A stretch of DNA of 64,000 nt, taken from IMG/VR virus record IMGVR_UViG_3300009103_000003, positions 32,001 through 96,000 of that record; one strand, 5' to 3'. Shown piece by piece: positions 38,219-64,000 of the stretch; the stretch's first letter is position 1, and the number at the start of each line of letters is the position of its first letter. A program made the translations under genes and the position numbers. The notes below the pieces were generated by a model, which worked only from the letters and a program-made list of their open reading frames with translations, ran no database searches and had not been told where the DNA came from. The DNA comes from a virus.

Positions 38219-39217
38219 ATGAAAGAATTACCAGCAGTTCTGGACCATTACGATGATGGAGGCTTGCTTCTTCGGAAAGAATTTAGTGAGCGTGGTGTCC
38301 CGAATATCATAAAAGTTGCCGCCGATATGTCTAACGCGCACTCTCGCCAAGAGAGTGATTACGCCCTTGTTGTAGACACTCCTCGCGGTAAAGCGCATAA
38401 ATTACCGATTATTGATGCTGGAAATGCATTGGCTTCTGCGATGTATTTCTCGGAGCATGGCAACACTTTGCCGCATGACCTTCAAAAGGAGGCCGCCCAA
38501 AAACTAAGCGACGCTTTAGTTTCTTTTGGGTTCACTCCCCCTGAAGATCTGACCAAGACTGCCGCTATGGAGCTTGGTTATAGCGGGGAGGCCGAGGACC
38601 AGAGCCTTGAGTCTCTTTTTGGGGTATCTAAGGACAATCAGTGGGAGGTCGTCAAAGACGCTTTTGACTCCTGCTCTCCTCGCGGGAAGCGCCGACTAAT
38701 GCTTCAGGTCAAAGAGGCCGGGGTGTTCAATGGTCTGTTCTCCGATGAGATGGAAGATTACGGTCGCGCCGAACTGGGTTCTGACTTTAGGGTTGGGATC
38801 GACACTAGGAGACTGGCAGTCATGGAGGGCGATGGTATCGCTGAATTAGAAGCTATTTTGGTGAAGTCTGCTTCCGCAGATCCCGAACAATTGGCTGTAG
38901 ATTTAGCTGACTTCGATATCCGGCATAGTATTACGCATATGTATAACGGGGTAATACTAGACCCCTATCAAACGGTTTACGGTACAACCGTAGAAAAAAC
39001 CGCATCTAGTGTACAACCGCTTGAAATTGGTGGTCGTGAGTATGCACCAAGTGATATTGTCTCTTGGGCAGAAGACGGCGGGTCTGATCGACTGGTCGAT
39101 TCTTTTGGTGAGACATTCGCACAGGAGTTTACTTCTGACCCCGTAGCAGTGTTAGATAGTCTACCTGTTACCCATAAACAAGCGATTGCACGGATGATTG
39201 ATGAGCCTAACCGCTGA
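38219..39217 (+). CDS. Acidic putative head/scaffold protein with repeated K-x-A-[A/S] motifs
   Basis: Start re-called to the ATG at 38219 (GGGAG SD). Contains IKVAA, QKEAA, TKTAA, VKSAS and EKTAS. Confidence 0.6.
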   Translation: MKELPAVLDHYDDGGLLLRKEFSERGVPNIIKVAADMSNAHSRQESDYALVVDTPRGKAHKLPIIDAGNALASAMYFSEHGNTLPHDLQKEAAQKLSDALVSFGFTPPEDLTKTAAMELGYSGEAEDQSLESLFGVSKDNQWEVVKDAFDSCSPRGKRRLMLQVKEAGVFNGLFSDEMEDYGRAELGSDFRVGIDTRRLAVMEGDGIAELEAILVKSASADPEQLAVDLADFDIRHSITHMYNGVILDPYQTVYGTTVEKTASSVQPLEIGGREYAPSDIVSWAEDGGSDRLVDSFGETFAQEFTSDPVAVLDSLPVTHKQAIARMIDEPNR

Positions 39218-39869
39218 ACAGCCGATACCAGATAATGGTCCACAGACACCTAGGCAGGCGTTCACGAATCGTCAAACGCACCCCCTTGTTCTCAATCTTA
39301 TGCTCCTCAAGGAGTTTGGTAGTGACTACCTAGGGTGGGAGCCGGAAACTTGCTGGCTTGAGATTAGTAGGACCTGGGGGACTACGATCTCCGAGATCAA
39401 TAAGAATAAAATCCAGGCCATCCGGACTTGCCATGTCACAGATGACCCATACGAAAGGTGGGAAGTGTTTGAGTTGGTTTCCACGGGGCTCATGGGGCTT
39501 CCTCCCAAGTTTGACTTGGTCCAGCGACCCACCCCTCATAGGGCGGCGTTTGCGTTAGATGTCTTAGGACAGGTTCGAGAGAGTAAGCTACCAAACGCAG
39601 AGGTGTATAAGTATGTTGCCGCAGTGTTAATGGATAATGGGGTTATGTATGGGCCGGGACCACTAGAGCCCTGCAATCAATACCTTACAAAGTTCGTTGA
39701 CTCTGGTAAGCAGGCCAATATTAAGCGGGCGGTATCTTTGCGTAAGAGGCCGACATTTAACGGCAAGAATGAGGATGATACACAAATTATGAAATCAACA
39801 TCTATAAAAGATTTCTTGGAATCAACCTCAAGAACATTATTAGTGCAGCTAAAGAAGCTGTTGCCGTAG
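39201..39869 (+). CDS. Hypothetical protein (head module)
   Basis: ORF directly upstream of the portal-like gene. Confidence 0.7.
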   Translation: MSLTAEQPIPDNGPQTPRQAFTNRQTHPLVLNLMLLKEFGSDYLGWEPETCWLEISRTWGTTISEINKNKIQAIRTCHVTDDPYERWEVFELVSTGLMGLPPKFDLVQRPTPHRAAFALDVLGQVRESKLPNAEVYKYVAAVLMDNGVMYGPGPLEPCNQYLTKFVDSGKQANIKRAVSLRKRPTFNGKNEDDTQIMKSTSIKDFLESTSRTLLVQLKKLLP

Positions 39870-39879
39870 GGGTGGATAA

Positions 39880-41892
39880 ATGGATTATGGTTCTCAACGA
39901 TACGGTCTAAGTTCTTCAGGCGCACGCGCTAAATCGGTTGGGCGACCTGAGTCATTTTACCCCAGCCCCTTTTTTGATGTTGCCAAAAACTACATCCCCA
40001 AAACCATTAAAGAGTGTTTTGACTGGTGTCATTACTATCAATTAACAAACCCTCTTGTTAATGCAGTAACTCAGAAGTTGGCCACCTATCCAATCACGGA
40101 CTTGGTGTACGAGGATGACAATGAGGGTGTTACCAAGATCTATAAAGACTTGTTTGAGAAGCAGTTTCTCATGCGGTCTTTTCTTATCGAAATCAATTTA
40201 GATAGGTACACATACGGGAACTCGTTTATCTCTGTAGCGTTCCCGTTCACCAAGCTCCTCAAATGCTCTAACTGTGGCCATGAATCCCCAGCAAGAAGTT
40301 CTGGATACAAATGGAAAGGATTCAAGTTCCATTTGGATTGCAAAGAGTGCGCCCATTACGGACCAGCCAAGGCCACTGACGAGCCCCTTAAGTCACCAAG
40401 GCAGATTAGACTTATTCGGTGGAACCCAAAGCATATTACCATAAAATATAATGAGATCACTGGGCGGTATCTCTACTACTACACCATGCCTAGAACGCTC
40501 AGGAATGACATCACCTTGGGTAAGCCGGATGTCTTAGAGACAATCCCGCAGGCGTTCATTGACGCCATTAGGAAAAAGAAGTCCATACTCTTGGACAACG
40601 ATAAAATTTTCCACACCAGAAGACCCTCTATTTCGAGAGAGCCCTCAGATAGTGGGTGGGGCGCACCGCTGATACTTCCCGTCCTGAAGGACATCTTCTT
40701 TCTTCAGGTGCTCAGAAAAGCCCAGGAAGCTGTGGCGATGGAGCACGTTGTTCCTATGCGAGTGATGTTCCCCCAAATCACTACGGATGGGAACAACCCT
40801 TATGCCCAAATTAATATGAAGGACTGGCAGAAAGAGGTGCAGGTCCAAATTAAACGCTGGCGGCAAGACAACAACCATATTCCGGTTATGCCTCTACCAA
40901 TTGGGTACCAGATGATTGGGGGGCAGGGCAGGTCCCTGCTGCTACACCAAGAGTTACGAATTTACTCCGATCAAATCATCGCTGGTATGGGCGTCCCAAC
41001 TGGGTTCTTTTATGGCGAAGCCCAGTACTCTGGGGCCTCGGTAAATCTAAGAGCCTTAGAAAACGAATTTCTCGGTAACCGACAAGACATGCTCAGATGC
41101 GTGGAGTTTGTCCGTGACCGCGTTGCGCATTTCTTAAACCTCCCCCAGATTGAGCTTAAGTTCAAGCCCTTCAAGATGGCGGATGATATTCAGAGGGCCA
41201 GCTTTGATATGAACTTGGCTAACGCTGGGATGATTAGCCGAAGAACCTTCTTACAGTCTCGTGATTTCAATTTTGATAATGAGCAAGAACTCATGTCCAA
41301 AGAAAATGAAATGATGGGACGTTCGCAAAGGGAGCAGCAGATTAGGCAGACCGAATCTCAGGGAGAAGCCATGCTTATTCAGACTCGATACCAAATAGAG
41401 TCTCAGAATATGCAGCAGGAAAATCAGGCGCAAATGCAGCAGCAGTATGGGCCCCCTCCCGGTGAAGAAGGGCAACAGCAGGGGCAGGGACAGCCGCAAC
41501 AGCAGGGGCAACCACAAGAGCAACAGGGTGGTGAGCAACAACCCCAAGGCGCTGAGGCACAGCAACAGGGCGCTGCCCCGGAGCAACAGGGTGAACAACC
41601 GCCACCGGAGCAACAGGGTGCTGGTGAAGTGGTTCAAGGTGCAGCACAAAGCCCTCTACAGGCAAACCAAAGCCCGATGGTGGACTTGTTTGCGCAAGCC
41701 AAGCGCCTCACCTCTGAGTTAAAAAAGATGAATGAGGTAGATAGGTACCGGGCGCTGGCACAGATTCGTGCCAGCAACCCGGATTTGTATATGTTGGTGA
41801 ACAACGCTCTGTCAGGTCAAGGCGTTCAGCCTATGCGACCATTACCAGAGAAATTACCACCAAGATCAGGACCGGGCAGTGCACAGATTTAA
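39880..41892 (+). CDS. Portal-like protein with a CxxC zinc-ribbon insertion and Gln-rich C-terminal region
   Basis: NPLVNAVTQKLATYP, NLDRYTYGNSF, LIRWNPKHI, WGAPLILPVL, IIAGMGVP.GFFYG and FKPFKMADD follow the usual portal layout. Terminase is in the same block. Confidence 0.65.
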   Translation: MDYGSQRYGLSSSGARAKSVGRPESFYPSPFFDVAKNYIPKTIKECFDWCHYYQLTNPLVNAVTQKLATYPITDLVYEDDNEGVTKIYKDLFEKQFLMRSFLIEINLDRYTYGNSFISVAFPFTKLLKCSNCGHESPARSSGYKWKGFKFHLDCKECAHYGPAKATDEPLKSPRQIRLIRWNPKHITIKYNEITGRYLYYYTMPRTLRNDITLGKPDVLETIPQAFIDAIRKKKSILLDNDKIFHTRRPSISREPSDSGWGAPLILPVLKDIFFLQVLRKAQEAVAMEHVVPMRVMFPQITTDGNNPYAQINMKDWQKEVQVQIKRWRQDNNHIPVMPLPIGYQMIGGQGRSLLLHQELRIYSDQIIAGMGVPTGFFYGEAQYSGASVNLRALENEFLGNRQDMLRCVEFVRDRVAHFLNLPQIELKFKPFKMADDIQRASFDMNLANAGMISRRTFLQSRDFNFDNEQELMSKENEMMGRSQREQQIRQTESQGEAMLIQTRYQIESQNMQQENQAQMQQQYGPPPGEEGQQQGQGQPQQQGQPQEQQGGEQQPQGAEAQQQGAAPEQQGEQPPPEQQGAGEVVQGAAQSPLQANQSPMVDLFAQAKRLTSELKKMNEVDRYRALAQIRASNPDLYMLVNNALSGQGVQPMRPLPEKLPPRSGPGSAQI

Positions 41893-42107: not shown

Positions 42108-42110
42108 AAG

Positions 42111-42248
42111 CTAATCTTTACTACCGGAAAGAGCATCCTCAACCGCGTTAGCGAAGTCCTCACAGGAACTGGCGCTACATGTAGTAATCGGCTCAGGAGA
42201 TTTAATAGAAGAACTATGGTTATACAACGGCTTCCAGAATTGGTTCAT
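42111..42248 (-). CDS. 45-aa hypothetical protein (MNQFWKPLYN...DALSGSKD)
   Basis: Not in the ORF track. AAGGAG SD before the ATG; stop lies 3 nt before the next minus-strand start. Confidence 0.55.
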   Translation of the reverse strand: MNQFWKPLYNHSSSIKSPEPITTCSASSCEDFANAVEDALSGSKD

Positions 42249-42329: not shown

Positions 42330-45300
42330 ATGTCGAATGTTTTAGATCCCCAGAGGGTGATGAAGACCCTCGAAGACGGGACGATAAACGAAATCAAAAA
42401 GTTTTTTCCTTTGGTTGGGAAGAAACATACGCTGATCGCCAAGGATGTCTATATTGGCGACCCAGTAGACATTGATGACGTTTCTAGTCAGAAAAAAGCA
42501 AGGCTTCGTGGGAGAACCTGGGCGCAGGGTGTCTTCGCAGACTTTAGTTTAGTCAACAACGAAACCGGCAAAGTAATTAGCACTGCTAATAAGCTAAAGG
42601 TTCTTAACCTACCAAAAATAACGCGAAGGTACAGCTACATTGTAGATGGTACCGAATACCAAGCAGACAACCAGTGGCGACTCAAGTCGGGCGTATATGC
42701 TCGTCGCAAAGCCAATGGCGATCTAGAATCCCAATTCAACCTAGCCCAAGGGCGCGGATTTAGACTAGGATTTGACCCCAAAAAGCGGCGATTCCTTATG
42801 TCCTACGGGACCTCCAACATCCAGCTTCTTCCGGTATTGCAAGCGCTCGGCGTCAAAGACGAAGACATACAAGCTGCCTGGGGTAACGAGCTATATACCG
42901 CTTCACTGGCCTCAAAAAAGCGGGGAGAGCTTGTGAAGCTTTCCAAGGCATTGGATAAGAAAGCTGGAGCAACGAACGACTCAGAGGCTGTGCCGGTAAT
43001 ACAAGCAGCCCTTAAAGAAACAAAACTTCTACCAGAAACAACTGCGATAACTCTCGGAGCCCCCCATACAACAGTTTCTGGTGATGCTCTGTTGGCGTCC
43101 TCCACAAAACTCCTAAACATAAACAAGGGAACCGAACAAGTCGATAACCGAGACGCGCTCCAGTTTAAGGAGCTTTGGGCCATTAACGACCATATCCCGG
43201 AACGAATCGAGAACTCAAAGCGTCGCATCACTTACAAGATGATGAACAATCTCGACCGTAAGGATAATGTGAGGGGGATTGTTACTGGGGACATTTTCAA
43301 TGTACCTATCAAGGCATTTTTTACCTCCACTTCCCTGTCCCAGCAGTCCTCCCAGGTTAACCCTGTAGATATGGTTGGGGGCTTCCTGAGAACCACAATT
43401 ATGGGGACCGGAGGCATTCAAAGCGACTCTGCTATCTCTGAGGAAGCTAAGCTGATTGATTCCAGCTTTCTCGGGTTTATTGATCCGGTGCACACCCCAG
43501 AAGGAAAGCGCTCCGGGATTAGTGGCCATCTTTCGCTAGGCGTACGTAAAAAGGGTACCGTCCCGCTTATCAAGGTATTCGACGTAAAGGCCGGTAAGTA
43601 CGCAGATAAATCACCATCAGAACTAACTTTGGGTAACGTAGCTTTCCCGGACCAATACGAGTTTACCAAAGGTAAATCTCCGAGGCCTATTGGGGACACC
43701 GCCACCGTTATCCCTTCCGGGGGAGGGGACCCGAGCAGGGTTGCATCATCTGACGTGGACTACATTCTTCAGTCTCCGAAACAGATGTTTTCCATCACAG
43801 CTAACCTTGTTCCCTTCCTCCCTTCGGATCAGGCAAACCGGGCAGGTATGGCAACCCGCCATATCGAACAGGCAATCTCCCTAACCAAAGCCGAAGAACC
43901 GCTGGTACAGGTTATCTCAGGCAACCCCAGTGAAAGATATGCTACCTGGGAAAAGATTGTGGGTGAGTTCTTCTCCCACCCCGCACCAGTAAGTGGTTTT
44001 GTTGACTCTGTCTCCAGTTCAAAGATTGTCGTAAAAAACAAGGACGGCAAGAAGCACGAAGTGCAGCTATATGACAACTTCCCGCTAAACGACAAGAAGG
44101 CGTATATTAGCAGTAATGCCTTAGTTAAGAAGGGGGACAAGGTATCTGAGGGGCAGATCATTGCGGACACGAACTTCACCAAGGGCGGAACGCTATCCCT
44201 AGGAACCAACCTGCTTATTGGCTATCTGCCTTACAAGGGGCTGGTTTTTGAGGACGGTATCGTCATCAGTGAGTCTGCGTCAAAAAAACTAACAAGCTCC
44301 CACTTACATAAAGAACGTTCATATGTAGATAAGAATATGGTGGTTGGGCTCAAGAAGTTTAGGGCTAATTACCCAGGCTCCATCTCCGAAGAAAACGCCA
44401 GCAAGCTTGACGCAGATGGGGTTATCAAAAAGGGGCAGACAGTTGACCCTGGGGACACCATCACCACGGTCCTTCAAAAAACAGAACCCTCAAAAGAACA
44501 GCTTCTTCTGAAGGGAATCCATAAGTCCCTTGTTAGGCCGTATAAAAACAAGTCCCTTGTTTGGGACAAACCTTACAGGGGCGAAGTCACCGACGTGGTT
44601 CGCAACGGGCGTGAGATTGTGGTCTATGTCAAGACCGAGGAGCCCGCAGACATTGGGGATAAGCTATCCGGAAGGCACGGCAATAAAGGGGTTATTACCG
44701 CAGTAATACCGGACGAAGAAATGCCGAAAGACTCGGAGGGTAACGCTCTACAGATAATCGTGAACCCGTCAGGGGTTCCGGGAAGAATCAATCCGGGGCA
44801 GGTCCTTGAGACTGCTTTGGGGAATGTTGCCCATAAAAACGGCGAGCCCTACGCAGTGGAGAACTTCCAATCAGATGACCGTAAGAAGGTTGTTCGCGTA
44901 AAGGCTCACACACGGACTATCCAAACAAAGTCTGGGCCTAAGACCGTAGAGGTTAAGGAACATGAACGAGAACTTGGTTACCGGGATGTTGTTGACGCTG
45001 CCCTAAAAAGCGCGAAGGTATCTGAGACAAGAGAATTGTTCGACCCACAGACAGGGAAAAGCCTCGGCTCCGTGCTCGTGGGACATCAGTATGTCCTCAA
45101 GCTAATGCACCAAGTAGACAAAAAGCTGAGTGCTCGTTCCCACGGATATGGGCATGATTACGACGCCAACCTAGTCCCAAAAAGCGGGGGGAAGTCTGGC
45201 GGTGCCCAAAGATTCGGTGAGCTTGGGCTCTACGCAATGTTGGCACACGGAGCCACGGCAAACATCCGAGACGCGTTAACATATAAAGGGGATAAGCAGC

Positions 45301-48300
45301 AGGACGAGGTTTGGACAGCAGTCCAGACTGGGGCTATTTTACCAACCCCTAAACCATCCTTTGCGTACGAAAAGTTTCTCGCCTACATGAATGCGTTAGG
45401 GCTAAATGTTGAAAAAGACGGCAATGGCCTAATCGTCTCACCACTTACAGACAAACAGATCAAGAGTATGTCTAACGGTGAAATAAAAGACGGAAGCCGA
45501 GTCATTCGTGGGAAGGACCTCAAGCCTGAGAAAGGTGGCCTATTTGATGAAACGATCACGGGCGGTCCCGGAGGCAAGAACTGGGCACATATCGCTCTCG
45601 CAGAGTCGCTCCCAAACCCTGTTTTCGAGAAAGGAATCCGCTCAGTTTTAGGGATAACCGGTAAAGAATATGATGCTGTAATAGCAGGTAAGTCCGGGTT
45701 CAATGCTGAGGGAGAGTTGGTGCCAGCCGGGGACGGCGTACTTACTGGGCCCGCTGCAATGGCCGCTCGACTAAAAAGTATCGACGTAGAGAGCGAACTA
45801 GCCTCAGCAAAAGAGGCGATAAAGACAGTCAGGCGAAATGACCTGGATAAGGTCAACAAGAAGATCAAGTATTGCCTGATGCTTCAAAAGAACAAAATCA
45901 GCCCACAAGAGGCATACGTTATTGATAACGTCCCGCTTCTTCCTCCGCTATTTCGACCCATCACAGCTATGGAGGGGGGAGACCTAAATATTGATGGTGT
46001 GAATATGCTCTATAGAGACATCGCACTGCTCAATAAGAAGCTGAAGGAGGCCCAAGGAGTCTTGCCAGAAGAAGCAATAATGAAACTTCGGGAAGATCTA
46101 TACTCCGCAACAGAAGCACTGATGGGCGTTCAGACCATGACTCAGGGAGGGCTGACGACAGACGGTCAACCCAGACCTCCTGGGATTCTGCATATCCTAG
46201 CTGGTAGATCCTCACCTAAGCAGAGCTACTTTCTACAAAGACTGGTAGACCGGAGACAAGACATAAGTATGCGTTCGGTCATTGTCCCTGACATGAACCT
46301 GCACTTAGATGAACTGGGTCTGCCTAGAAAAGGGGCGATGAAGATCTTCCGACCATTTGTGGTTCGGGAACTTGTTAAGATGGGGTACACACCCCTAAAA
46401 GCCAGGACTGAAGTAGAGAAGAACACAAGCCTAGCAAACAAGGCGCTGGACATTGCGGTTGAGAAGCGGCCCGTTATGTTCAAGCGAGATCCCGTTCTGC
46501 ACAAGTTTGGGATTATGGCGTTCAAGGCACGCCTTCATGACGAGTCAGCAATCCATATTCACCCACTTGTTGTTGGTGGGTTCAATGCTGATTTTGATGG
46601 AGACACGATGGCAGTGTTTGTCCCTGTATCGCAAGAAGCAGTGGATGAGTCATATAAGATGATGCCATCAAAGAACCTGTTTAACCCGGCTACCGGGCAC
46701 GTGATGTACCAACCAACTCTTGAGGGACAGTTGGGACTTTACCTCCTCTCTCGATGGGGGAAGAAGTCATCTAAGGCATTCAAGAACTCGAAAGAGGCCA
46801 TTGCTGACGCCAAAGAAGGAAACATCAGCATGACTGATGTCATCCAGGTAGGTGACATTAAAACAACTGCGGGAAGATTATTATTCAATAATATGCTCCC
46901 AAAGAAAGTCCAATCCGATAAATTCCTCACAGACCCGAAAGCTATCGTTGATAAGAAAACCCTTCAGGGGGTTCTTAGGGATGTGGCCACCAAAACCCCG
47001 CAAGAATTCGCGCAAACAGCGGATAGGGTCAAAGACCTTGGTTTTGGCCACGCATACAACATCGGGTTCTCGTTCGCTCTTTCAGACTTCGCACCTTTGC
47101 GGGACATTCGCGAAAAGCACATGACCCTCGCAAAAAAGAAAGAGGCGGTTATTCGAAAGCAGTTATCGATGAAGATGTTGTCCAAAGAAGCTGCCAACGA
47201 TAAAATTGTAAAACTATATGAATCCGCAGATTCGGCCATGACCGCTGATGCTACTGCTTTACTAGATAAGGGCGGGAACAAGCTTAAGCTTATGGAGGCT
47301 GCGGGGGTTAAGCCCTCATGGTCACAGCTTAAACAAATGATCATGGCACCGATGCTAGTTGAAAACGCGCAGGGAAGGGTCATACCTGTTCCCGTGACTA
47401 GCTCCTATTCAGAGGGGCTGAAGTCCTCGGACTACTGGGTAACTACATCGGGCGCTCGTGCGGGCCTTATCAAAAAGGTCCAGTCCGTTCAGAAGCCTGG
47501 GGCGCTTAATAAGCAGATCGCTAATACAACAATATCATACGTAATAAACAATGATGACTGTGGGACTGGGAAGGGGATATCCTTACCGGTATTTGATTCA
47601 GATTTAGTTGACCGGTTTACCGCGAAATCGATTTCAACCGCAGGATTGAAGGTATCTTCCGGGACTCTTATCACCCCTAATCTTCTCTCTAAAATGAAGG
47701 CGTCCAAGGTGGACAGGGTGGTTGTCAGGTCCCCTCTTAAGTGTGAGCAGTCCAAGGGGCTGTGTTCCAAGTGTTACGGTATTACCGATAATGGGGCTCC
47801 CATAGCTAAGGGAACCAATATCGGATTAATTGCCGGGACGTCAATTGGTGAACGTGGGACACAACTTTCTATGAAGGCTTTCCATACTGGCGGTGTAGCT
47901 GGGGGAGGAAGCTCGGTTGTTGGTGGTATTGACCGGGTCTCACAATTGCTGAAGATGCCTGCACTATTGGCTGGCTCTGCGACACTGTCTCCGGTTTCTG
48001 GAGAGGTGACCTCCGTAACAAAGAGTGAGATTGGTGGCCACGATGTGGTTATCGGCAACCAAGAGGCGTACATCCCCGGCAATCTATCGGTTTCCGTAAA
48101 GAAGGGCGAGAAGGTACGCAGAGGTCAACAAATTTCTAGTGGGGTCATTAACCCGCACGATCTTCTTGAGAAGACAAACATTGAGACAGTTCAGCGGTAT
48201 CTTGCGGATGAGATTCACAAGGTCTACGCGAAAGAGGGCATCAAGAAGAGAAACGTTGAGGTGGTAACAAAGGCTTTAACGAATCTGGGCAGGGTAATGG

Positions 48301-55393: not shown

Positions 55394-57163
55394 ATGAGTC
55401 TGGGCGATTACTTAACCAAATCTGCGGAAGAAGCTCCCCCCAAGCATGGGACAGGGATTCCTTCGCTCAAAGAATGGTTCAAGCCCTACGATCATCAAGC
55501 AAGCGCAATTGACCGCCTGTTCGCTAACAAAGGGAAGATGATTCTCGCCCATGAGATGGGTACCGGTAAAACCGTTACCAGTATCTATGGGTTTGAGAAA
55601 ATGAAGCATGAAGGTAAGGCGAAAAAAGCTCTTGTCATTGTGCCTTCCGGTCTTCGAGACAACTTCGCCAAAAACGGTATTGAGAAGTTCACCAATAGTA
55701 CTTGGCAGGCGATTGGTTCTTCCTCTGAGAAGTCTAAGAAGGCTGGGTATATCAGGCCTGGGGAAGAGTCCGACAAAGATTACACAGTAATAAGCTATGC
55801 GATGTTTCGGCGTGATCCAATTGGGTACATGAAGCGAACAGGCGCAGATACGATTATCGCGGACGAGTTCCACAAGACTAGGAATGAACGGGCTAGCACA
55901 TACCAAGCCCTGGCCTCTGCTCGTGTGTTGGCTACAAACTTCATGGGGCTGACCGCCTCGATGATTAATAATAATCCTTCGGAGTTGGCGACCCTGCTTA
56001 CCTTATCGGAGGGGAGGCGGGACCTAACACCAAGGCAATTTAAGCGCCGATATACCCAAACGATTGGATTCACCAAAGGATTTAATGACGGTCGTAAAAA
56101 GATCGTTGGGATGAAAAATGTTGATGAGCTACGGGAGCGGACAGGGACAAAAGTAGACTACGTCGAAACCAAGGACTTGAAAGGCAAGACGATGCCTAAA
56201 AAAGATATTGAGACAGTCCCTGTCCCAATGTCTAAGGAACAGTATCGACTGTATCAACTGTCACTAAACAAGCTCGGCCCAGTTAAGAAGTATATAACCA
56301 AGAAAGACCCAAACATCACTGTGCGAGAAGCCAAGATGATTTTTGGGCAGATTTCACAAGCCCGACAAGTCGCTAACTCTCTCCAAACTGGGCGAAGTGA
56401 TGTGACCCTTGCCGAGTCATCCAGAAGAACTCCGAAGGTGAACAGGCTCCTAAACGACACAGAAAAACACTTGGCAGATAAGTCAGACAACAAGGTTGTT
56501 TTATATTCGAACCTTGTTCGTGGTGGGGTGGATGTTCTATCTGCCGGGTTAAAAGAACGAGGAATCCCCCACTCTGTATTCGTTGGTAAAGGCACAGAGG
56601 TGGGTGGTAATAAGGTTACAGCCGTCTCCAGACAGGCTGGAGTTCAGGAGTATAAGGCCGGGAAAAAGCGGGTAATCGTCATCAGTGGTGCTGGGGCTGA
56701 GGGGCTCGATCTTAAGAACTCAACGGCATTTTTCTCTTTAGATGGGCACTTCAATCCACAACGCGTTTTACAAGCAGAGGGTAGGGCTAGAAGACTTGGT
56801 GGGCAAAAACATCGCGCATTAGAGGACCGCATTGTGAATGTAAGGCGCTACCAGAGTGTCGCGCCAGACAGTGCAAAGCCTGGGTTTATTGGTCGAGTGT
56901 TTGGGAAGACCACCCCAAGAACAACAGATCAATGGATGGATAGCGTTGCTAGCCGGAAGTACCAGCAGCAAGAGCAATTCTATAAAGCCTATAAGCAGAA
57001 AAAGCATCTGTATAAATACACAGACCAAAGCGGGAAAACTAGATATGTCTACGCCAAAAAAACCAAACAAAAATCCCCTGGACTCTTTTCTCGGATCTTC
57101 TCTAGAAAGCGAACTCCTGAAGCTAGCCCAATCCAAGCCCCCAAACCTACGACTGTCGGATAG
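55394..57163 (+). CDS. SNF2-family ATPase/helicase
   Basis: YDHQASAI, AHEMGTGKT, VIVPSGL, IIADEFH, LTAS, KVVLYS, SGAGAEGLDL, FNP...QAEGRARRLG. Confidence 0.93.
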   Translation: MSLGDYLTKSAEEAPPKHGTGIPSLKEWFKPYDHQASAIDRLFANKGKMILAHEMGTGKTVTSIYGFEKMKHEGKAKKALVIVPSGLRDNFAKNGIEKFTNSTWQAIGSSSEKSKKAGYIRPGEESDKDYTVISYAMFRRDPIGYMKRTGADTIIADEFHKTRNERASTYQALASARVLATNFMGLTASMINNNPSELATLLTLSEGRRDLTPRQFKRRYTQTIGFTKGFNDGRKKIVGMKNVDELRERTGTKVDYVETKDLKGKTMPKKDIETVPVPMSKEQYRLYQLSLNKLGPVKKYITKKDPNITVREAKMIFGQISQARQVANSLQTGRSDVTLAESSRRTPKVNRLLNDTEKHLADKSDNKVVLYSNLVRGGVDVLSAGLKERGIPHSVFVGKGTEVGGNKVTAVSRQAGVQEYKAGKKRVIVISGAGAEGLDLKNSTAFFSLDGHFNPQRVLQAEGRARRLGGQKHRALEDRIVNVRRYQSVAPDSAKPGFIGRVFGKTTPRTTDQWMDSVASRKYQQQEQFYKAYKQKKHLYKYTDQSGKTRYVYAKKTKQKSPGLFSRIFSRKRTPEASPIQAPKPTTVG

Positions 57164-57305: not shown

Positions 57306-57307
57306 TT

Positions 57308-58887: not shown

Positions 58888-59127
58888 TCAGTCCCGTCTC
58901 TTGCCATACCAGATTGTTATTTTCCCGTATTTCGCGTTAATACGTACTCGGCCCTTGGGGCCTAAGGCATCTCTAAGGAAGGCGTCTAGTAATTTTTTAG
59001 CTTGTGGGTCTAGTGGGGCCCACACGGTAAGCGTGTAGGTTTTCCCATGACTCTCGTACGACAACAGATCGTTACCGATAGCTCTGGAAAGTGAGGCAAT
59101 AACTCTTTTGAAGGCTACGTCATCCAT
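58888..59127 (-). CDS. Hypothetical protein (antisense island)
   Basis: Protein-like 79-aa ORF. No SD; its start shares a CATG with a possible terminase start. Confidence 0.5.
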   Translation of the reverse strand: MDDVAFKRVIASLSRAIGNDLLSYESHGKTYTLTVWAPLDPQAKKLLDAFLRDALGPKGRVRINAKYGKITIWYGKRRD

Positions 59128-60763
59128 GATTAAAGTTCACGATAGTGACAACCCAGAATGGACACCGTTATCGATGTTCCCGTCTGAGTTCGTTAGCTCA
59201 TTTGTGAATATTGCCTCAGGCGGGCACCTGAGCAAATTCAGTTTTAAAGGACGGCAGTACCTTCTACCCATTTACGACACTCCTGCTCGTAGGGTTTTGC
59301 TCTTGTGCGGTCGTCAGGTAGAGAAAAGTACGACCCTTGGGAATACTATGCTGACGCACACAATGCTTCAACACCATTTCCGAGCTTTGTTTGTGAGCCC
59401 TACCCAGCAGCAAACTGAAACGTTCTCTAGGGATAGGATTGCAACCCCAATTGAGGTGTCGCCCCACTTGCAAGTTTTCACTAGGGGTGACCACACAAAA
59501 AATAACGTTTTATATAAGAAATTTATTACCGGGTCCGATCTGACCATGCGGTATGCATTTCTGCACGCTGACCGCGTTCGCGGTATTTCCGCTGACATGT
59601 TATTGCTGGATGAGATTCAGGACATCCTCACAGAGGTTATCCCAGTAATCGAAGAAGCCCTGTCTCACTCCCCTATCAAGCTTCTTAGGTATTCTGGGAC
59701 ACCCAAGAGTGTTGATAACACGATTAGTTATTACTGGAACCAGTTCTCTACAATGAATGAGTGGGTCATCCCTTGTGATAGCTGCAATAAGTGGAACGTT
59801 ATAGGGATAGACAACGTCGGCCCAGAGTTCCTTATGTGCTCGAAATGTCACTCAAAAATACATCCGGACCACCCTAAGGCTCAATGGGCTTCGATGCGTT
59901 CTCCCCAGTGGTTGAGCAACCCCCCAATTGCTGAGCCATTCGAGGGATACAGAATCCCGCAAGTTATTACCCCCTGGGTGAGTTGGGATGAAATTTCGGA
60001 TAAGAGAAAGAGGTATTCTAAGGCGCAATTCTACAATGAGTGCCTGGGGTTACCATACGATTCCGGTTCCAAGCCTCTTACGAAAGAGAGCCTTATGGCT
60101 TGCTGTGACCCAGGAAGGTCTATGAAGCAAGTGGAGCAGTTTGCCCTAAGAAATAAAGTGTTCATGGGCATTGACTGGGGAACGGCTGAAAATTCCTACA
60201 CGGTCATGACTGTGGGTGCGTATATAAAAGATCGGTTCCACGTCCTTTTATTCAAACGTTTTGAGGGTGAGGAAGCTGAGCCAGAAAAGATGATGAGCAC
60301 TATTAGTAGTTATATTGATCGTTTTAAGGTAGACACAGTTGGTGTAGACTACGGTGGTGGGTTTGACAGAAATGACAAACTTATTAGAACATTTGGGATT
60401 CGCCGGATAGCAAGGTATCAGTACGTAAACACAAAAAAGATTTATTTTGATAAGAGCCTTCACCGATTTATGGTGAACAGGACAGAGGCCTTAATGGCTA
60501 TTATTAACGCTATAAACAGAGGTGACGAATTTGTCTTCCCCAAGTGGGAAGAGATTGAGTTTCCTTTTGGAAGCGATATGTTATCTGTGTTCACAGAGTA
60601 TAATGAGGCTAGGCGCACAACGGTGATCCAGAGAACGCCGGGAACAACTGATGATACATTGCACTCATTGGCGTATTGTTTTTTGGCATCTATGATAAAG
60701 CACCCAAGACCTGATATTATCACCCCAATAGGGGATCGGGAAGAAGGGGCTAGAAGAGGTTAA
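59126..60763 (+). CDS. terL: Terminase large subunit (GpA-like)
   Basis: RQYLLPIYD, CGRQVEKST (Walker A variant), LLLDEIQD, YSGTP, CDSC..CSKC, FYNECLGLPY, nuclease MGIDWG, and DDTLHSL. Exact start uncertain (59108/59126/59174). Confidence 0.9.
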   Translation: MIKVHDSDNPEWTPLSMFPSEFVSSFVNIASGGHLSKFSFKGRQYLLPIYDTPARRVLLLCGRQVEKSTTLGNTMLTHTMLQHHFRALFVSPTQQQTETFSRDRIATPIEVSPHLQVFTRGDHTKNNVLYKKFITGSDLTMRYAFLHADRVRGISADMLLLDEIQDILTEVIPVIEEALSHSPIKLLRYSGTPKSVDNTISYYWNQFSTMNEWVIPCDSCNKWNVIGIDNVGPEFLMCSKCHSKIHPDHPKAQWASMRSPQWLSNPPIAEPFEGYRIPQVITPWVSWDEISDKRKRYSKAQFYNECLGLPYDSGSKPLTKESLMACCDPGRSMKQVEQFALRNKVFMGIDWGTAENSYTVMTVGAYIKDRFHVLLFKRFEGEEAEPEKMMSTISSYIDRFKVDTVGVDYGGGFDRNDKLIRTFGIRRIARYQYVNTKKIYFDKSLHRFMVNRTEALMAIINAINRGDEFVFPKWEEIEFPFGSDMLSVFTEYNEARRTTVIQRTPGTTDDTLHSLAYCFLASMIKHPRPDIITPIGDREEGARRG

Positions 60764-60765
60764 AC

Positions 60766-61851
60766 ATGGAAGACTTAGAATCGTATTTGCTAAACAAGGA
60801 TGATACAGGGGTGACTCGCTCAGAGTTACGTCACTTTGGGAAGCAGGCAGCAGTCCGCTACATTCAGAACGAAACCCCCTTGAATGACTCAATCAGTGAG
60901 TTTGCGAAGGAGGCTGGTCTTAGTCTTGAACAAATTAAGCGCGTGGCGGAATACGCAAATAATGATACCTTCGCGACCATGTTTAAGCTTGGGTTTGCCA
61001 AGAACATCACTTTTCCTATGGCCGATGCAATCGCTGTTTCACAAACAATCAATGCGCCGAAGGTGAAGACCGCGTCTGTGAATAAGCCCCACATCCCCCA
61101 AAGAATGAAGTACGTCCCTGGTCAAGAGGGCGTTGATTTAGAGAATATTTTTGGTTCGGGCGAAGAACTAGAGAAGACCGCCCAGTACGCGGACCCTGAC
61201 ATTAGTGAGGCCACAAGAAATTTTTTGGATGCTCATACAACCAATAAGAATGCTGAGGCCACCAAAGAAGCGCTAGGGGACGTTTTTGAAATCAGAATGT
61301 CTGCGTTAGGCGACTTGTGTAAAGAAGCCTCCCGCGCAGGGAACAGTGCTGGCATTATTGGTTATGCCATTGAGGCGGCGTCTCCGTCTGAGGGGCTACT
61401 ATCAGTAATCTCCGAGTCGCTCGGTGACTTAGTTGAATTTGGTCACGGCCCAGAACTAGAAAAGCTTGGGATGAGCATGATGATGCCAAACCCAATAAGC
61501 GGTCTGACTCAAGAGCTTGAGGGGACTGCACAAAAACTAACAATGACCCAACAAGCTGTTGTGAAAACACAGATGGCCATGCAGGAATTGCTAACAATTC
61601 TTCGGGGCCCGGATATGTCTGGCGGGGCCGCGCAGGTATTCGGAGGCGGAACGCCTTCCCCTGAGCCGCCCATGGGACCACCTCCTATGGGTGCCCCTAG
61701 GCCAGAGATGGCTCCAGTTGGCAGTCCTCAGGCGGCACCCCCACCAATGGGAGCAGCCCCTGAGACCGCTCCACCAACGGGCGGGCCTTCTCCGCAGCCG
61801 GGACCTCCCGGTATGCCTCCGCAAGGACCCCAAGGCCCAGGATTGGTGTAA
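60766..61851 (+). CDS. Putative scaffold/head protein with K-x-A motifs and a Pro-rich C-terminus
   Basis: GKQAA, VKTAS, EKTAQ and CKEAS; helical core; PPMG-type low-complexity tail. Confidence 0.55.
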   Translation: MEDLESYLLNKDDTGVTRSELRHFGKQAAVRYIQNETPLNDSISEFAKEAGLSLEQIKRVAEYANNDTFATMFKLGFAKNITFPMADAIAVSQTINAPKVKTASVNKPHIPQRMKYVPGQEGVDLENIFGSGEELEKTAQYADPDISEATRNFLDAHTTNKNAEATKEALGDVFEIRMSALGDLCKEASRAGNSAGIIGYAIEAASPSEGLLSVISESLGDLVEFGHGPELEKLGMSMMMPNPISGLTQELEGTAQKLTMTQQAVVKTQMAMQELLTILRGPDMSGGAAQVFGGGTPSPEPPMGPPPMGAPRPEMAPVGSPQAAPPPMGAAPETAPPTGGPSPQPGPPGMPPQGPQGPGLV

Positions 61852-62459
61852 TGAATAGGTTTGAGAAACAAGCTGCCAAAGACCGACTAGGCGCGGCATT
61901 CAACAAACATTTTGTTGAGGGTCACCCGGACAACTTGGTTCTTGGTCGCCAATCCAAACTTAGTCGAGGAGTGGGGAACGTTCTCTATGGGCCCGCGTCT
62001 TTTTTAGCTGCTAGCCCAGGCCGTATGGCGCATAATACTTTGGGTGGGCTTCTCTTTGGGGCAAAAGAGGGGAACCCGTTGAGCCCTATGTATGGGAAAC
62101 GACTAAAGGCTGTTGGTGGGCTCGACGGTCTACAGAATATTTCAAAAGCAGAGTACGATGAAATTAAGCAGGGCCTCCAAAAAGGTAAGGCGTATAAAGG
62201 TCGTATCTCCGGTCATGCCCTACCACAGTTTTACAAGAGGAAATATACTCCTGGTGGACTTGTAGGGTTTGCGCAGAAGCACCCACTTCTTGCTGGTGGT
62301 GGCGCTCTTCTTGCGTATTACTTAGCGAAGAGCCCGGAAAACCGGCAAATGGCCAGTGCAATGATGCCCAAAATGAACTCAGATATTTCACCAGAAACTA
62401 TCCGACAATGGAAAGAGCCTGACGTGGTTAGCCCATTCCAAAGACGGGCATGGGGTTGA
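61851..62459 (+). CDS. Basic Gly-rich protein (putative internal virion protein)
   Basis: Starts MNRFEKQAA; hydrophobic LLAGGGALLAYYL. Confidence 0.6.
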   Translation: MNRFEKQAAKDRLGAAFNKHFVEGHPDNLVLGRQSKLSRGVGNVLYGPASFLAASPGRMAHNTLGGLLFGAKEGNPLSPMYGKRLKAVGGLDGLQNISKAEYDEIKQGLQKGKAYKGRISGHALPQFYKRKYTPGGLVGFAQKHPLLAGGGALLAYYLAKSPENRQMASAMMPKMNSDISPETIRQWKEPDVVSPFQRRAWG

Positions 62460-62461
62460 TA

Positions 62462-63124
62462 ATGGAACAAGATAAAAAAGATCGGCTTATTCAAAAACTT
62501 GCTGCACAGCAGTCGCTTCCAGGCATGAAGCCCAAGGCAAAGGACGTCCTCAAGAATTGGGGGAAAAGTGTCGGTAAAGAAGTAGCAGATCCAAAAGCTC
62601 TGGGCTCAGCGTTAAGAAAGGCCCTTTCCCAAGGCGCTGTTTTGGGTGGTGGGGTTCTTGCGGCTAAGTACTTTAAGAAGAAGCCAACCCTGATGAAAAA
62701 GCTTCTTGGTGAAGGCACTCCTGGCCGGAAGGCTCTGGCGTTTGGTGCGGGAGCCGCTGGTATCGCTGGTGGCTTAAAAGCTGTTGAGGGACTTGGGGAT
62801 GCTGTGTCTAATCCATTGAAGAAAAAGAAGTATTTCAATAATATGATGGACGAAAACCCCTCTCTGAAGAAAGAGCCAAAAAGGGACGTAGAGCGCATTT
62901 TTAGAACGCTCTATAAGTTCAATCCGACAATGGCCAGCGACCCACTAGTCGCAGGGTCTTTCATGAGAAGATCCTTACAGTTCAAGGACGAGGGAATCCA
63001 GCCTGTAGATGTTAAGACGTTGGCGGAAATCTCGAAGTCACTGAAGGACTCCAAGCGAGGCGATGGGCTTCTTAGCGGAGCTTTTGCTGGAACCGGTGCG
63101 GAACTTCTGAGCTACGCAGGATAG
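62462..63124 (+). CDS. Basic Gly-zipper protein (putative internal virion protein)
   Basis: N-terminal IQKLAA; GAVLGGGVLAA and ALAFGAGAAGIAGG. Start is 62462 or 62450. Confidence 0.65.
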   Translation: MEQDKKDRLIQKLAAQQSLPGMKPKAKDVLKNWGKSVGKEVADPKALGSALRKALSQGAVLGGGVLAAKYFKKKPTLMKKLLGEGTPGRKALAFGAGAAGIAGGLKAVEGLGDAVSNPLKKKKYFNNMMDENPSLKKEPKRDVERIFRTLYKFNPTMASDPLVAGSFMRRSLQFKDEGIQPVDVKTLAEISKSLKDSKRGDGLLSGAFAGTGAELLSYAG

Positions 63125-63130
63125 GTAGAG

Positions 63131-63751
63131 ATGGCGCAAGTTGAAACCTCACAAGATTACCCAGTTTCGAGATTCTTAACGAGTCCCGCTGGGAAAGCTT
63201 TGGGTTCTGCGGCAGCAACCGGTGGCCTCATGCTTGCCCTTAGAAAGGGGATGCGGTCCAAGGCTGCTAAGAAAATTCTTGAGAATAAGACTCTACAAAG
63301 CCTTGGGGTCAGGAACACTGCTGGTCCAAGCAATAAGGCAATCGCAACAACGGCTGCTTTGTCTGGGGGCCTAAGTGGTATCTTCGCCAATATGGAAAGA
63401 GACATCTATGCAAAAGCCCTCAAGAGTAAGCTTGAGTCAGGGCGAGGCGGGTTCACAAGACAAGAAAAAAACCTGCTTGTTGGTAAGGCGGCTGATGAGG
63501 GGAGCCTGGGTGGTCAAAAAGGTTTCTCCGAGTACTACATAACCCCAAAAACTCACGCTGTGGGTCGCGCCGCTATGGGCTTGCTGTTTGGTGGCCCAAC
63601 GGGGGCTGTCACGGAAGGCCTGTCCGGAGGCGTTGGAACAACGGCCAGCAGACATATGTGGGCCAGGGCATTATCAGCCAGAGCCAAGCGCGGAGACAAG
63701 CTAACCAAGGGAGAAGAGAGCCTCCTCAGAACTTTGGGAGGGAGGCAGTAA
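63131..63751 (+). CDS. Basic Gly-zipper protein (putative internal virion protein)
   Basis: LGSAAATGGLMLAL, AALSGGLSGIF and AAMGLLFGGPTGAV. Confidence 0.65.
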   Translation: MAQVETSQDYPVSRFLTSPAGKALGSAAATGGLMLALRKGMRSKAAKKILENKTLQSLGVRNTAGPSNKAIATTAALSGGLSGIFANMERDIYAKALKSKLESGRGGFTRQEKNLLVGKAADEGSLGGQKGFSEYYITPKTHAVGRAAMGLLFGGPTGAVTEGLSGGVGTTASRHMWARALSARAKRGDKLTKGEESLLRTLGGRQ

Positions 63752-63752
63752 G

Positions 63753-64000
63753 ATGCTGAAGCTACTTACATTTCCTGGGTCAGATGACGAAGGAAATATC
63801 TTTGTTCAGGCGATTAACCCGTCTGACAGTTTGGTTAAGGTTGCGTCTCATGACGCGCTCCACCCAGAAATTCAATCTTACATAGGTGGGCTTAAGTCCA
63901 TGGACACTCACCTATATGTTTTGGTTAATGCCCTAGGGGCTGGTGAGTATTACGGCAGTAATATTAATGGGGATTTCTTCGAAGAGAAGGAGCTGAACCC
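63753..64000 (+). CDS. 3'-truncated ORF, possible prohead/capsid maturation protease
   Basis: Not in the ORF track. MLKLLTFPGS...LVKVASH...LVNALGAGEYYGSNINGDFFEEKELN; the N-x-N-G-D-x-F...EL segment resembles the N-terminal motif of prohead proteases. Catalytic residues would lie beyond the window. Confidence 0.4.
   Translation, partial: MLKLLTFPGSDDEGNIFVQAINPSDSLVKVASHDALHPEIQSYIGGLKSMDTHLYVLVNALGAGEYYGSNINGDFFEEKELN

What the first reader, a model, noticed from the sequence alone, without database searches (positions are those of the whole stretch)
38219..64000. Recurrent K-x-A-[A/S] peptide tag across unrelated head-block proteins: candidate capsid-targeting or maturation-cleavage system for an injected payload
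Seen directly: 38219 (IKVAA, QKEAA, TKTAA, VKSAS, EKTAS); 50460 (EKTAS x2, VKQAS, IKMAS, LKIAS, DKIAS, RKLAS, EKVAA); 53577 (EKKAA); 57308 (ELEKTAA); 60766 (GKQAA, VKTAS, CKEAS, also LEKTAQ); 61851 (FEKQAA); 62462 (QKLAA); 63753 (VKVAS). Near-matches are LTKSAE (SNF2), ELLKLAQ (57045) and YGKSAE (48605). In the kinase, SNF2, 50460, 61851 and 62462 proteins it lies within ~20 residues of the N-terminus. A rough composition estimate gives under one hit per 668 aa versus eight in the 50460 protein, and I found only about three in ~6400 aa of tail proteins. Established: T4 gp21 and phiKZ gp175 cleave many head proteins at short shared motifs, and T4 internal proteins carry a cleaved N-terminal capsid-targeting sequence. 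Inference: this phage uses a Lys-x-Ala code, perhaps read by the protease-like ORF at 63753, to load or process a payload of a kinase, a SNF2 ATPase and membrane-active proteins. The motif is not enriched in the RNAP or terminase.
Basis: partly seen in the sequence, partly recalled or inferred. Interest (0 to 1): 0.9.

Follow-up and report, generated by a model that had tools for sequence, protein, structure and literature searches.

The report
Lys-x-Ala cleavage code of phage head proteins
A short Lys-x-Ala-(Ser/Ala) tag recurs far more often than chance in this 181-kb marine phage's head proteins and in hundreds of relatives. It is most likely the cutting signal of the phage's own head-maturation protease, a specificity not described before, and it lets one predict which proteins are packed inside the capsid.

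Summary
K-x-A-[A/S] occurs 34 times in the 28-ORF head block, against 12.3±3.4 in shuffles (z=6.4). Reversed and permuted control motifs are flat, and the rest of the genome is at chance. A position matrix trained only on distant relatives finds 28 high-scoring sites in 10.5 kaa of head block and none in 17 kaa of tail or large virion proteins.

The same enrichment holds in Salmonella phage Arash, Vibrio phage D69, Bacillus phage G and 80 metagenomic loci (1518 observed, 436 expected). Sites sit at aligned positions in orthologues:
- the N-terminus of the major capsid protein;
- the N-terminus of the protease, and the end of its catalytic domain;
- an acidic scaffold-like protein;
- short N-terminal leaders on an SNF2 helicase, a weakly kinase-like protein, two small basic proteins and a sigma factor.

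The ORF starting at 63753 folds like the T4 gp21 prohead protease. Its own K-x-A sites fall in disordered linkers.

Best reading (about 0.7): K-x-A is the P3-P1 cleavage motif of a gp21/assemblin-fold protease, working like the T4 and phiKZ systems but with Ala, not Glu, at P1. Cleavage itself is untested. The refined motif is [L/M/F]-[E/V/T]-K-[T/L/V]-A-[S/A]-A. I call it a new variant of a known kind.

The parts
38207..39217 (+). Acidic 336-aa protein of unknown family (pI 4.6) with five K-x-A-[A/S] sites. Predicted multiply cut internal or core protein.
   Evidence: 5 sites vs 0.28 expected (p=1e-5). No Pfam or PHROG hit.
39880..41892 (+). Portal protein (context). No high-scoring site.
   Evidence: 32% identity to Arash gp204 portal, E 3e-96; no site.
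42330..48605 (+). Single-chain beta-beta' RNA polymerase (context). No motif enrichment and no N-terminal tag here, but the Arash and D69 orthologues begin with K-[S/K]-A-S.
   Evidence: Rpb2 and Rpb1 domains in one 2091-aa ORF; alignment.
48605..49963 (+). 452-aa protein with K7-S-A|E near its N-terminus. Weak candidate leader.
   Evidence: Matrix score below 2.5. Conservation not tested.
50460..52463 (+). 667-aa conserved head-block protein with eight K-x-A-[A/S] sites and about nine matrix sites. The first site gives a 16-residue N-terminal leader ending FEKTA|S.
   Evidence: K and A are kept in 49-53 of 56 homologues at sites 14, 436, 477 and 535, although flanks are only 40-56% identical. 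AF2 model: sites 184, 317 and 560 lie in or at segments with pLDDT below 50, and site 14 lies in the unstructured N-terminus. Start at 50460 agrees with homologues and the database gene call.
55394..57163 (+). SNF2-family helicase with an 11-residue N-terminal leader (SLGDYLTKSA|E).
   Evidence: Pfam SNF2-rel_dom, E 4e-20. Leader K-x-A kept in 11 of 16 orthologues. The Arash orthologue gp217 was detected in virions (PMC10585845).
57308..58570 (+). 420-aa protein, weakly protein-kinase-like, with an 18-residue leader ending ELEKTA|A.
   Evidence: score 5.4; 3 of 3 orthologues. Atlas structural hits to Pkinase have TM of only 0.3-0.4. No HRD or DFG motif.
59108..60763 (+). Large terminase (context and negative control). 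No site.
   Evidence: PHROG 675, E 5e-72.
60766..61851 (+). 361-aa acidic protein, orthologue of Arash gp220 (7 sites) and D69 0268. It has 3-4 sites and a Pro-rich C-terminal tail.
   Evidence: Site GK.AA is kept in 42 of 50 orthologues and K[TV]A in 39 of 50.
61851..62459 (+). Small basic protein (pI 10.1) with an 8-residue leader MNRFEKQA|A. Internal-protein candidate.
   Evidence: (14 of 17 orthologues).
62450..63124 (+). Small basic protein (pI 10.0) with leader ending LIQKLA|A. The leader is kept only in close relatives.
   Evidence: (13 of 40).
63753..64000 (+). Start of the 561-aa prohead protease-scaffold fusion, which runs on to window coordinate 65438, beyond the window end. Protease domain is about residues 32-228. 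Own sites are K29-V-A|S, K229-V-A|S and K259-M-A|A. Further parts of the system lie past the window end (genome coordinate = window + 32000). (a) 65531-66139: acidic scaffold-like protein (pI 4.1) with six matrix sites. (b) 66381-67232 and 67235-67585: small acidic proteins with YVEKLA|S and NTKLA|S. (c) 68215-69420: major capsid protein with KEKIA|A at residues 23-28. Upstream of the window, the sigma factor at genome 11304-12275 has leader ..EFLKYA|G.
   Evidence: Protease: PHROG 18299, E 5e-9. Foldseek top hit is T4 gp21 5JBL, prob 1.0, TM 0.62. K29, A31, H104 and S160 are invariant and K229 and A231 are >=90% conserved in 62 homologues. The sites lie in linkers with pLDDT below 50. Parts beyond the window: (scaffold-like EK.A in 30 of 31 orthologues; YVEKLASAVDF in 14 of 14; capsid K-x-A in 30 of 31). 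Sigma leader.

Best explanation
K-x-A, with S/A/G preferred after it, L/M/F at P5, E/V/T at P4 and T/L/V at P2, is the substrate recognition and cleavage motif of the phage's prohead maturation protease (561-aa ORF starting at 63753). That protein is a serine protease with the T4 gp21/herpesvirus-assemblin fold, fused to a helical scaffold-like C-terminal half. By analogy with T4 gp21 (L/I-x-E) and phiKZ gp175 (S/A/G-x-E), the three-residue motif occupies P3-P1 and the cut follows Ala. Inside the assembled prohead the protease would do four things. (1) Free itself at K29-x-A31 and at K229-x-A231, the end of its catalytic domain. (2) Trim about 27 residues from the major capsid protein. (3) Chop the acidic scaffold-like and core proteins (65531, 38207, 60766, perhaps 50460) into short pieces. 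(4) Remove 8-18-residue N-terminal leaders from cargo proteins: the SNF2 helicase, the 57308 protein, two small basic proteins and, upstream of the window, a sigma factor. Those leaders would act like T4 capsid-targeting sequences. Shown here: the enrichment, its restriction to head genes, its conservation, the protease fold, and the linker position of the protease's own sites. Inferred: that cutting occurs, which bond is cut, that the leaders target cargo into the head, and that cargo is ejected into the host.
For: Enrichment and controls. A matrix trained on relatives whose protease is <=50% identical finds sites scoring >=3 bits at 28 in the head block, 0 in 17,173 aa of tail or large proteins and 3 in 27,058 aa of other proteins. 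Family-wide enrichment: Arash gp220, gp223, gp225; D69; phage G protease gp19, portal gp14 and gp7; 80 IMG/VR loci at 3.5-fold, with the reversed motif at 0.88. Aligned conservation at canonical processing positions. At the protease N-terminal site K and A are invariant, while the next residue may be S, A, G, E, F, D, N, T, Y, K or R. That pattern is expected if the bond after Ala is cut and specificity lies on the non-prime side. Protease identity: PHROG 18299 and Foldseek hit to T4 gp21. The protease's own sites fall exactly in disordered linkers. The acidic proteins after the protease resemble scaffolds in three phages. The known T4 and phiKZ/SPN3US systems work this way (PMC5694885, PMC10052503). 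RNAP, sigma and helicase are abundant in Arash virions (PMC10585845).
Against: There is no experimental neo-N-terminus for any member of this clade. The Arash supplement holds no peptide lists, and its coverage figures are not interpretable. Arash gp220, gp223 and gp225, which carry many sites, are still detected in virions, so they are not simply degraded and expelled. Several sites in the 50460 protein lie in confidently folded strands or helices (267, 436, 477, 535) and may not be accessible. The window's own RNAP carries no tag although it is the expected cargo. The catalytic residues H104 and S160 are inferred from invariance only; there was no Pfam or PDB sequence match. The related loci share ancestry, so the pooled counts are not independent events.
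Confidence: 0.7

Rival explanations
1. K-x-A-(S/A) is a short docking motif that binds the scaffold, portal or protease and recruits proteins into the prohead, but it is not itself cut. Processing, if any, happens elsewhere.
For: Single N-terminal copies on cargo-like proteins. Multi-site proteins persist in Arash virions. Some sites lie in folded elements.
Against: The motif sits at the classic autoprocessing positions of the protease, in disordered linkers, and at the capsid protein N-terminus. It occurs 6-10 times in scaffold-like proteins, which a docking role does not need. The P3-x-P1 architecture and variable P1' match the cleavage motifs of homologous proteases (PMC5694885).
Confidence: 0.13
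2. The pattern is a by-product of composition or of repeated Ala-rich helical modules in acidic head proteins, with no sequence-specific reader.
For: Arash gp223 and D69 0271 contain repeated units (..VELVKEAS.. and ..LEKAAAV..), so some counts are not independent. Substrate proteins are Ala-rich.
Against: Shuffles that keep each protein's composition give z=6.4. Reversed and permuted motifs are flat. There are preferences at P5, P4 and P2, and information drops off outside P7-P2'. Single sites are conserved in non-repetitive proteins such as the SNF2 helicase, capsid protein, protease and sigma factor.
Confidence: 0.04
3. The conserved Lys is the point: the motif marks lysines for a modification, for example by the Ubl-E2-E1-JAB operon this genome carries or by capsid cross-linking, rather than a protease site.
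For: Lys is invariant.
Against: The motif tracks the protease family across very different phages (Arash, D69, phage G), and I did not test those for a Ubl operon. Its positions, at N-terminal leaders, the protease domain boundary and scaffold-like proteins, are those of proteolysis. No known Ubl system reads a K-x-A motif (my own knowledge).
Confidence: 0.04

Closest known systems
T4 gp21 prohead protease with its L/I-x-E sites and the capsid-targeting sequences of internal proteins IPI-III and Alt
   Same: Same fold (Foldseek 5JBL). Three-residue P3-x-P1 motif. It cuts the capsid protein N-terminus, shreds scaffold and core proteins, and removes 10-20-residue N-terminal leaders from small basic internal proteins and enzymes (PMC5694885).
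   Different: P1 is Ala and P3 is Lys instead of Glu and Leu/Ile. There is no detectable sequence similarity (no Pfam or PDB sequence hit). The protease is fused to a 330-residue helical C-terminal half and has a Cys-x-x-Cys...Cys insertion. The predicted cargo includes an SNF2 helicase and a sigma factor.
phiKZ gp175 / SPN3US gp245 (MEROPS S80) with S/A/G-x-E sites, inner-body and ejection proteins, and virion RNAP
   Same: Large phage. Many head proteins share one motif. Multiple cuts occur within propeptides. The protease processes itself. An RNA polymerase is packaged in the head (PMC10052503, PMC5694885; for this clade only the Arash proteome, PMC10585845).
   Different: Cleavage there is after Glu. 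The RNAP there is multi-subunit and split, whereas here it is a single-chain beta-beta' enzyme plus a sigma factor. The propeptides predicted here are mostly short (8-40 residues).
Herpesvirus assemblin (MEROPS S21), consensus (V/L/I)-x-A|S at release and maturation sites
   Same: Small Ala at P1 and Ser preferred at P1'. An N-terminal protease domain is followed by a release-type site (K229-V-A-S232 here) and a scaffold-like C-terminal part. Same superfamily fold (HSV-1 protease appears at rank 32). The consensus is from my own knowledge.
   Different: P3 is Lys here, not a hydrophobic residue. The catalytic third residue is unknown. The structural match is far weaker than to gp21. No C-terminal maturation site near the scaffold end was shown.

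Membership tests
gp21/assemblin-fold prohead serine proteases (MEROPS clan SH: S21, S77, S78, S80) | Herpesvirus-protease-like fold of the catalytic domain | tested here: met
   AF2 model (residues 40-220 mostly pLDDT above 80). Foldseek top three hits are T4 gp21 5JBL chains, prob 1.0, target TM 0.62; the next hits are noise.
gp21/assemblin-fold prohead serine proteases (MEROPS clan SH: S21, S77, S78, S80) | Conserved catalytic His and Ser, plus Asp/His/Glu as third residue | tested here: inconclusive
   H104 and S160 are invariant in 62 homologues, 56 residues apart. D168 is invariant and D182 is >=90% conserved. No residue-level superposition on gp21 was possible.
gp21/assemblin-fold prohead serine proteases (MEROPS clan SH: S21, S77, S78, S80) | Sequence match to a curated family model | tested here: inconclusive
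   No Pfam hit at E<=0.01 and no PDB profile hit. PHROG 18299 'head maturation protease' matches at E 5e-9.
gp21/assemblin-fold prohead serine proteases (MEROPS clan SH: S21, S77, S78, S80) | Gene sits between the terminase/portal and the scaffold and major capsid genes | tested here: met
   Order is TerL 59108, protease 63753, acidic scaffold-like 65531, capsid protein 68215. Arash, D69 and phage G have the same order.
T4 gp21 (S77) / phiKZ gp175 (S80) specificity class | Cleavage C-terminal to Glu at x-x-E motifs shared by head proteins | tested here: not met
   The motif scan of the head block shows no enriched x.E motif. The top motifs are EK.A and K.AS.
T4-type capsid-targeting-sequence / internal-protein system | Short N-terminal leader ending in the protease motif, on small basic proteins and enzymes encoded with the head genes | tested here: met
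   Leaders of 8-18 residues on 61851 (pI 10.1), 62450 (pI 10.0), SNF2 and 57308, and on the sigma factor upstream. They are conserved in orthologues.
T4-type capsid-targeting-sequence / internal-protein system | The leader is sufficient for packaging, is removed in the head, and the cargo is ejected into the host | not testable with these tools
   Only indirect support: the Arash virion proteome contains RNAP, sigma and helicase (PMC10585845).
Herpesvirus assemblin-type substrates | Ala at P1 and Ser at P1', with a release site at the end of the protease domain | tested here: inconclusive
   Sequence pattern: K229-V-A-S232 lies in a disordered linker right after the last strand of the domain. 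P1' S scores +2.0 bits and A +1.0 in a matrix not conditioned on P1'. The scissile bond itself is not determined.

The most novel reading that the evidence does not exclude
This is the first phage prohead protease family with an assemblin-like Ala|Ser scissile bond, set by a Lys at P3. Its readable code shows that a widespread clade of about 180-kb marine phages (and Arash, Vibrio D69 and phage G) packages and injects a complete bacterial-type transcription starter kit: single-chain beta-beta' RNAP, sigma factor, SNF2 helicase and a kinase-like enzyme, together with T4-like basic internal proteins.
Probability: 0.35. Interest if true: 0.72.

Novelty: new variant of a known kind. Interest (0 to 1): 0.62.

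Why it matters
Prohead-protease cleavage codes are known in detail only for T4 and the phiKZ group, and both cut after Glu. A third, chemically different code (Lys-x-Ala) would have three uses.

- It gives a purely sequence-based way to list capsid-internal and probably ejected proteins in an almost unstudied clade. The protease alone has 1186 database homologues at E<=1e-5, many on contigs of 170-200 kb.
- It predicts mature protein ends for cryo-EM and proteomics of three cultured phages: Arash, D69 and phage G.
- It adds a data point on how specificity evolved in the fold shared by phage and herpesvirus proteases.

The leaders could also serve as packaging tags for foreign proteins, as the T4 targeting sequence does.

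Tried and rejected
- Megablast of the region against 50,697 phage records gave no match.
- PHROGs and Pfam gave nothing for most head-block ORFs.
- A profile search of the protease alignment against PDB sequences gave no hit.
- The 50460 protein has no informative match. Foldseek returned only sliding-clamp hits with TM below 0.11, and the Atlas returned no usable hit. Its fold and role remain unknown.
- Mycobacteriophage I3, whose protease is 28% identical, shows no clear K-x-A enrichment. It has only LKHA|E at the matching N-terminal position, so the code may not extend to Bixzunaviruses.
- The Arash supplement holds a feature table only, with no peptides. The 'coverage' values in its Table 2 are implausible for the peptide counts and were not used as evidence for or against cleavage.
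- Literature searches found only Glu-type motifs for phage prohead proteases. The phage G paper names gp19 a maturation protease but gives no motif.
- 'Membrane-active cargo' is rejected. Only 53577 has hydrophobic Gly/Ala segments, and its K-V-A-P is not conserved.
- 'Kinase' is downgraded to a weak lead.
- Caveat on my own ORF calls: they take the longest ORF greedily, so some N-termini are over-extended. For example, 50391 should start at 50460, and the sigma factor near its residue 28.
Full report
**Setting.** The window is bases 32001-96000 of a single 181,199-bp virus record. I called 215 ORFs with a greedy longest-ORF rule. The finding covers a plus-strand block. It contains the portal (39880), a single-chain beta-beta' RNA polymerase (42330; Pfam Rpb2 and Rpb1 domains), an SNF2 helicase (55394) and the large terminase (59108; PHROG 675). 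A 561-aa ORF starts at 63753; its N-terminal part matches PHROG 18299 'head maturation protease' (E 5e-9). Just beyond the window lie small acidic proteins and the major capsid protein (window coordinates 68215-69420; PHROG 2522, and 27% identity to the Arash capsid protein).

- the 38207 protein has 5 K.A[AS] where 0.28 are expected;
- the 50391/50460 protein has 8 vs 0.70;
- the 60766 protein has 3 vs 0.31;
- the protease has 3 vs 0.43.

Shuffling every protein 500 times gives 12.3±3.4 for the 28-ORF head block, against 34 observed (z=6.4). The other 187 ORFs give 46 vs 39.0±7.0. Seven control motifs, including the reversed motif, Arg for Lys, permuted order, and Gly or Ser for Ala, show nothing. 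A scan of all gapped two- and three-residue motifs ranks EK.A and K.AS first and second in the head block only.

**Refining the motif.** I collected 80 IMG/VR loci around protease homologues that are 31-79% identical. From those at <=50% identity I built a position matrix, using proteins chosen for excess K.A regardless of the next residue. The preferences are:
- P7: E
- P5: M, F, L
- P4: E, V, T
- P3: K
- P2: T, L, V
- P1: A
- P1': S (+2.0 bits), A (+1.0)
- P2': A

Little information lies outside this span. Applied to the window's genome, sites scoring >=3 bits number 28 in 10,551 aa of head block. There are 0 in 17,173 aa of tail or large virion proteins, 3 in 27,058 aa of everything else, and 1 in an upstream cassette.

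**Relatives.** The nearest named phages are very distant, with about 20 shared genes at 25-40% identity. They are Salmonella phage Arash and Vibrio phages D69, D148 and D181; Bacillus phage G and the Bixzunavirus mycobacteriophages share the protease.
- Arash shows the same enrichment beside its protease: gp220 7 vs 0.63, gp223 6 vs 0.79, gp225 5 vs 0.43.
- D69 shows 10 vs 0.91 in the protein after the protease (p=5e-8).
- In phage G the motif marks the protease gp19 (positions 43, 248, 274), both ends of the portal gp14, and gp7 (8 vs 1.5).
- Across the 80 loci, plus-strand ORFs carry 1518 K.A[AS] against 436 expected. After removing duplicates the ratio is 3.5, while the reversed motif is at 0.88.
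- Mycobacteriophage I3 shows no clear signal.

**Conservation at aligned positions.**
- In 120 protease homologues, 98 have K.A[ASG] at residues 28-31. The other 22 were not tallied one by one, but the 15 listed all keep K-x-A there, followed by E, F, D, N, T, Y, K, R or H.
- In a 62-sequence alignment, K29 and A31 are invariant and K229 and A231 are >=90% conserved.
- Capsid protein: KEK[I/L/M]A followed by A, E or Q in 30 of 31 orthologues. Arash and D69 have KEAG at the aligned place.
- SNF2 helicase: SLGDY-x-x-K-x-A in 11 of 16.
- 57308: LEK[T/V]AATAAL in 3 of 3.
- 60766 family: 42 of 50 and 39 of 50 at two sites.
- 61851: 14 of 17.
- Scaffold-like 65531: 30 of 31.
- 66381: YVEKLASAVDF in 14 of 14 orthologues that are otherwise only 24-65% identical.
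- In the 50460 protein, four sites keep K and A in 49-53 of 56 homologues although their flanks are 40-56% identical.
- K15-V-A-P of 53577 is not conserved (4 of 11), and I drop it.

**The reader of the code.** An AlphaFold model of the 561-aa protein (62-sequence alignment, mean pLDDT 74) has a confident N-terminal domain. Its best and only meaningful PDB matches are the three chains of the T4 gp21 prohead protease (prob 1.0, target TM 0.62). HSV-1 protease appears further down the list. H104 and S160 are invariant. The segments with pLDDT below 50 are 28-33, 219-228, 230-234, 251-264 and 476-488. These are exactly the places of K29-V-A-S, K229-V-A-S, K259-M-A-A and a conserved K483-x-A. The C-terminal 330 residues are long helices, as in protease-scaffold fusions.

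**Kinds of substrate.** Three kinds can be told apart.
- *Many sites, acidic, Ala-rich.* These are 65531 (pI 4.1, six sites, pieces of 12-76 aa), 38207 and 60766, with the counterparts of 65531 in the same position in Arash and D69. This is the profile of scaffold or core proteins that T4 gp21 shreds (PMC5694885).
- *One site near the N-terminus of a folded protein.* These are the capsid protein, the protease, the SNF2 helicase, 57308, and two basic proteins of about 200 aa (pI about 10), which resemble T4 internal proteins with their targeting leaders.
- *The 50460 protein.* It has 8-9 sites. Some lie in disordered linkers (184, 317, 560) or the unstructured N-terminus (14), and others lie in folded elements. 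Its role is unknown.

**Beyond the window.** I confirmed one. The sigma factor at genome 11304-12275 carries D-P-V-S-E-F-L-K-Y-A|G near its true start. The same leader recurs in four relatives at 68-88% identity, and in altered form (W-V-L-G-K-L-A|A) in one at 41%. In Arash, RNAP beta had the most spectra of any virion protein, and beta', sigma and the helicase were also detected (PMC10585845). That preparation listed 116 proteins, so contamination is possible.

**Mechanism and its limits.** The best reading is a maturation-cleavage code with P3 Lys and P1 Ala, cut after Ala. This is by analogy with the P3-x-P1 motifs of the homologous T4 and phiKZ/SPN3US enzymes, which all cut after Glu (PMC5694885, PMC10052503). 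The free variation of the residue after Ala supports it. Ala at P1 with Ser at P1' recalls the herpesvirus assemblin consensus (my own knowledge). Nothing here shows cleavage directly. The Arash multi-site proteins remain detectable in virions. The window's own RNAP lacks a tag, although its Arash and D69 orthologues start with K-[S/K]-A-S. A docking-only motif, a compositional artefact and a lysine-modification signal are the rivals. The second is largely excluded by the controls.

**Known or new.** I found no description of a Lys-x-Ala prohead-protease motif. The Arash and phage G papers do not discuss processing. The system works like the T4 and phiKZ ones, but it fails the 'cuts after Glu' feature of those families. 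I therefore class it as a new variant of a known kind, with interest about 0.6. It is directly testable in three cultured phages, and it yields a sequence-only predictor of head-internal cargo for a large uncultured clade.

Noticed in passing
window 42330-48605 (+): One 2091-aa ORF carries both beta (Rpb2 domains 2, 3, 6, 7) and beta' (Rpb1 domains 1, 2, 3, 5) of a bacterial-type RNA polymerase, with a weak Peptidase_M23-like stretch near residue 1900. In Arash and D69 the same enzyme is split into two genes.
   Followed up: partly
L001:753-2438 (window 63753-65438), residues 168-188: The protease domain carries an insertion with invariant C170, C173 and C184, followed by His-His. It looks like a small zinc-binding knuckle, which I do not know from gp21, gp175 or assemblin.
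   Followed up: no
protease homologues P0054, P0079, P0083, P0084, P0095, P0096, P0103, P0115: Several metagenomic homologues of the protease are 750-950 aa long and carry intein or homing-endonuclease domains (PF05203, PF14528, PF13403) inserted in the protease. Others are fused to PF18823 or a cupin.
   Followed up: no
genome 10763-19260 (L002; upstream of the window): A cassette of plus-strand ORFs with K-x-A in the first 12-40 residues: ELEKQA|M (matrix score 6.2), FLKYA|G on a sigma factor, LTKHA|K, ITKLA|E, TVKVA|A, LIKVA|A. Only the sigma leader was checked in relatives, and it is conserved.
   Followed up: partly
window 25416-25760 (-): A 114-aa ORF in the minus-strand replication block has the single best-scoring site in the genome (EAMEKVA|S, 7.2 bits) at residue 37. 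It may be chance, or a cargo protein encoded away from the head genes.
   Followed up: no
Arash 148194-148976 (L007/L004) and D69 L009:21313-22122: The acidic proteins after the protease are built of repeated units of about 35 residues (..FE-x-AVELVKEAS.. and ..LEKAAAV-x-EL..). Each unit is bounded by the motif, as if they were precursors of many small peptides.
   Followed up: partly
window 60766-61851, C-terminal ~90 residues: A long Pro/Gly/Ala-rich low-complexity tail (PPMG and GPP repeats) follows the conserved part of this Arash-gp220-like protein. It is absent from the Arash and D69 orthologues.
   Followed up: no
window 53577-55391 (+): A 604-aa protein with two Gly/Ala-rich hydrophobic segments (around residues 213 and 450). 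It is the only membrane-like protein in the block. Its K-x-A near the N-terminus is not conserved.
   Followed up: partly
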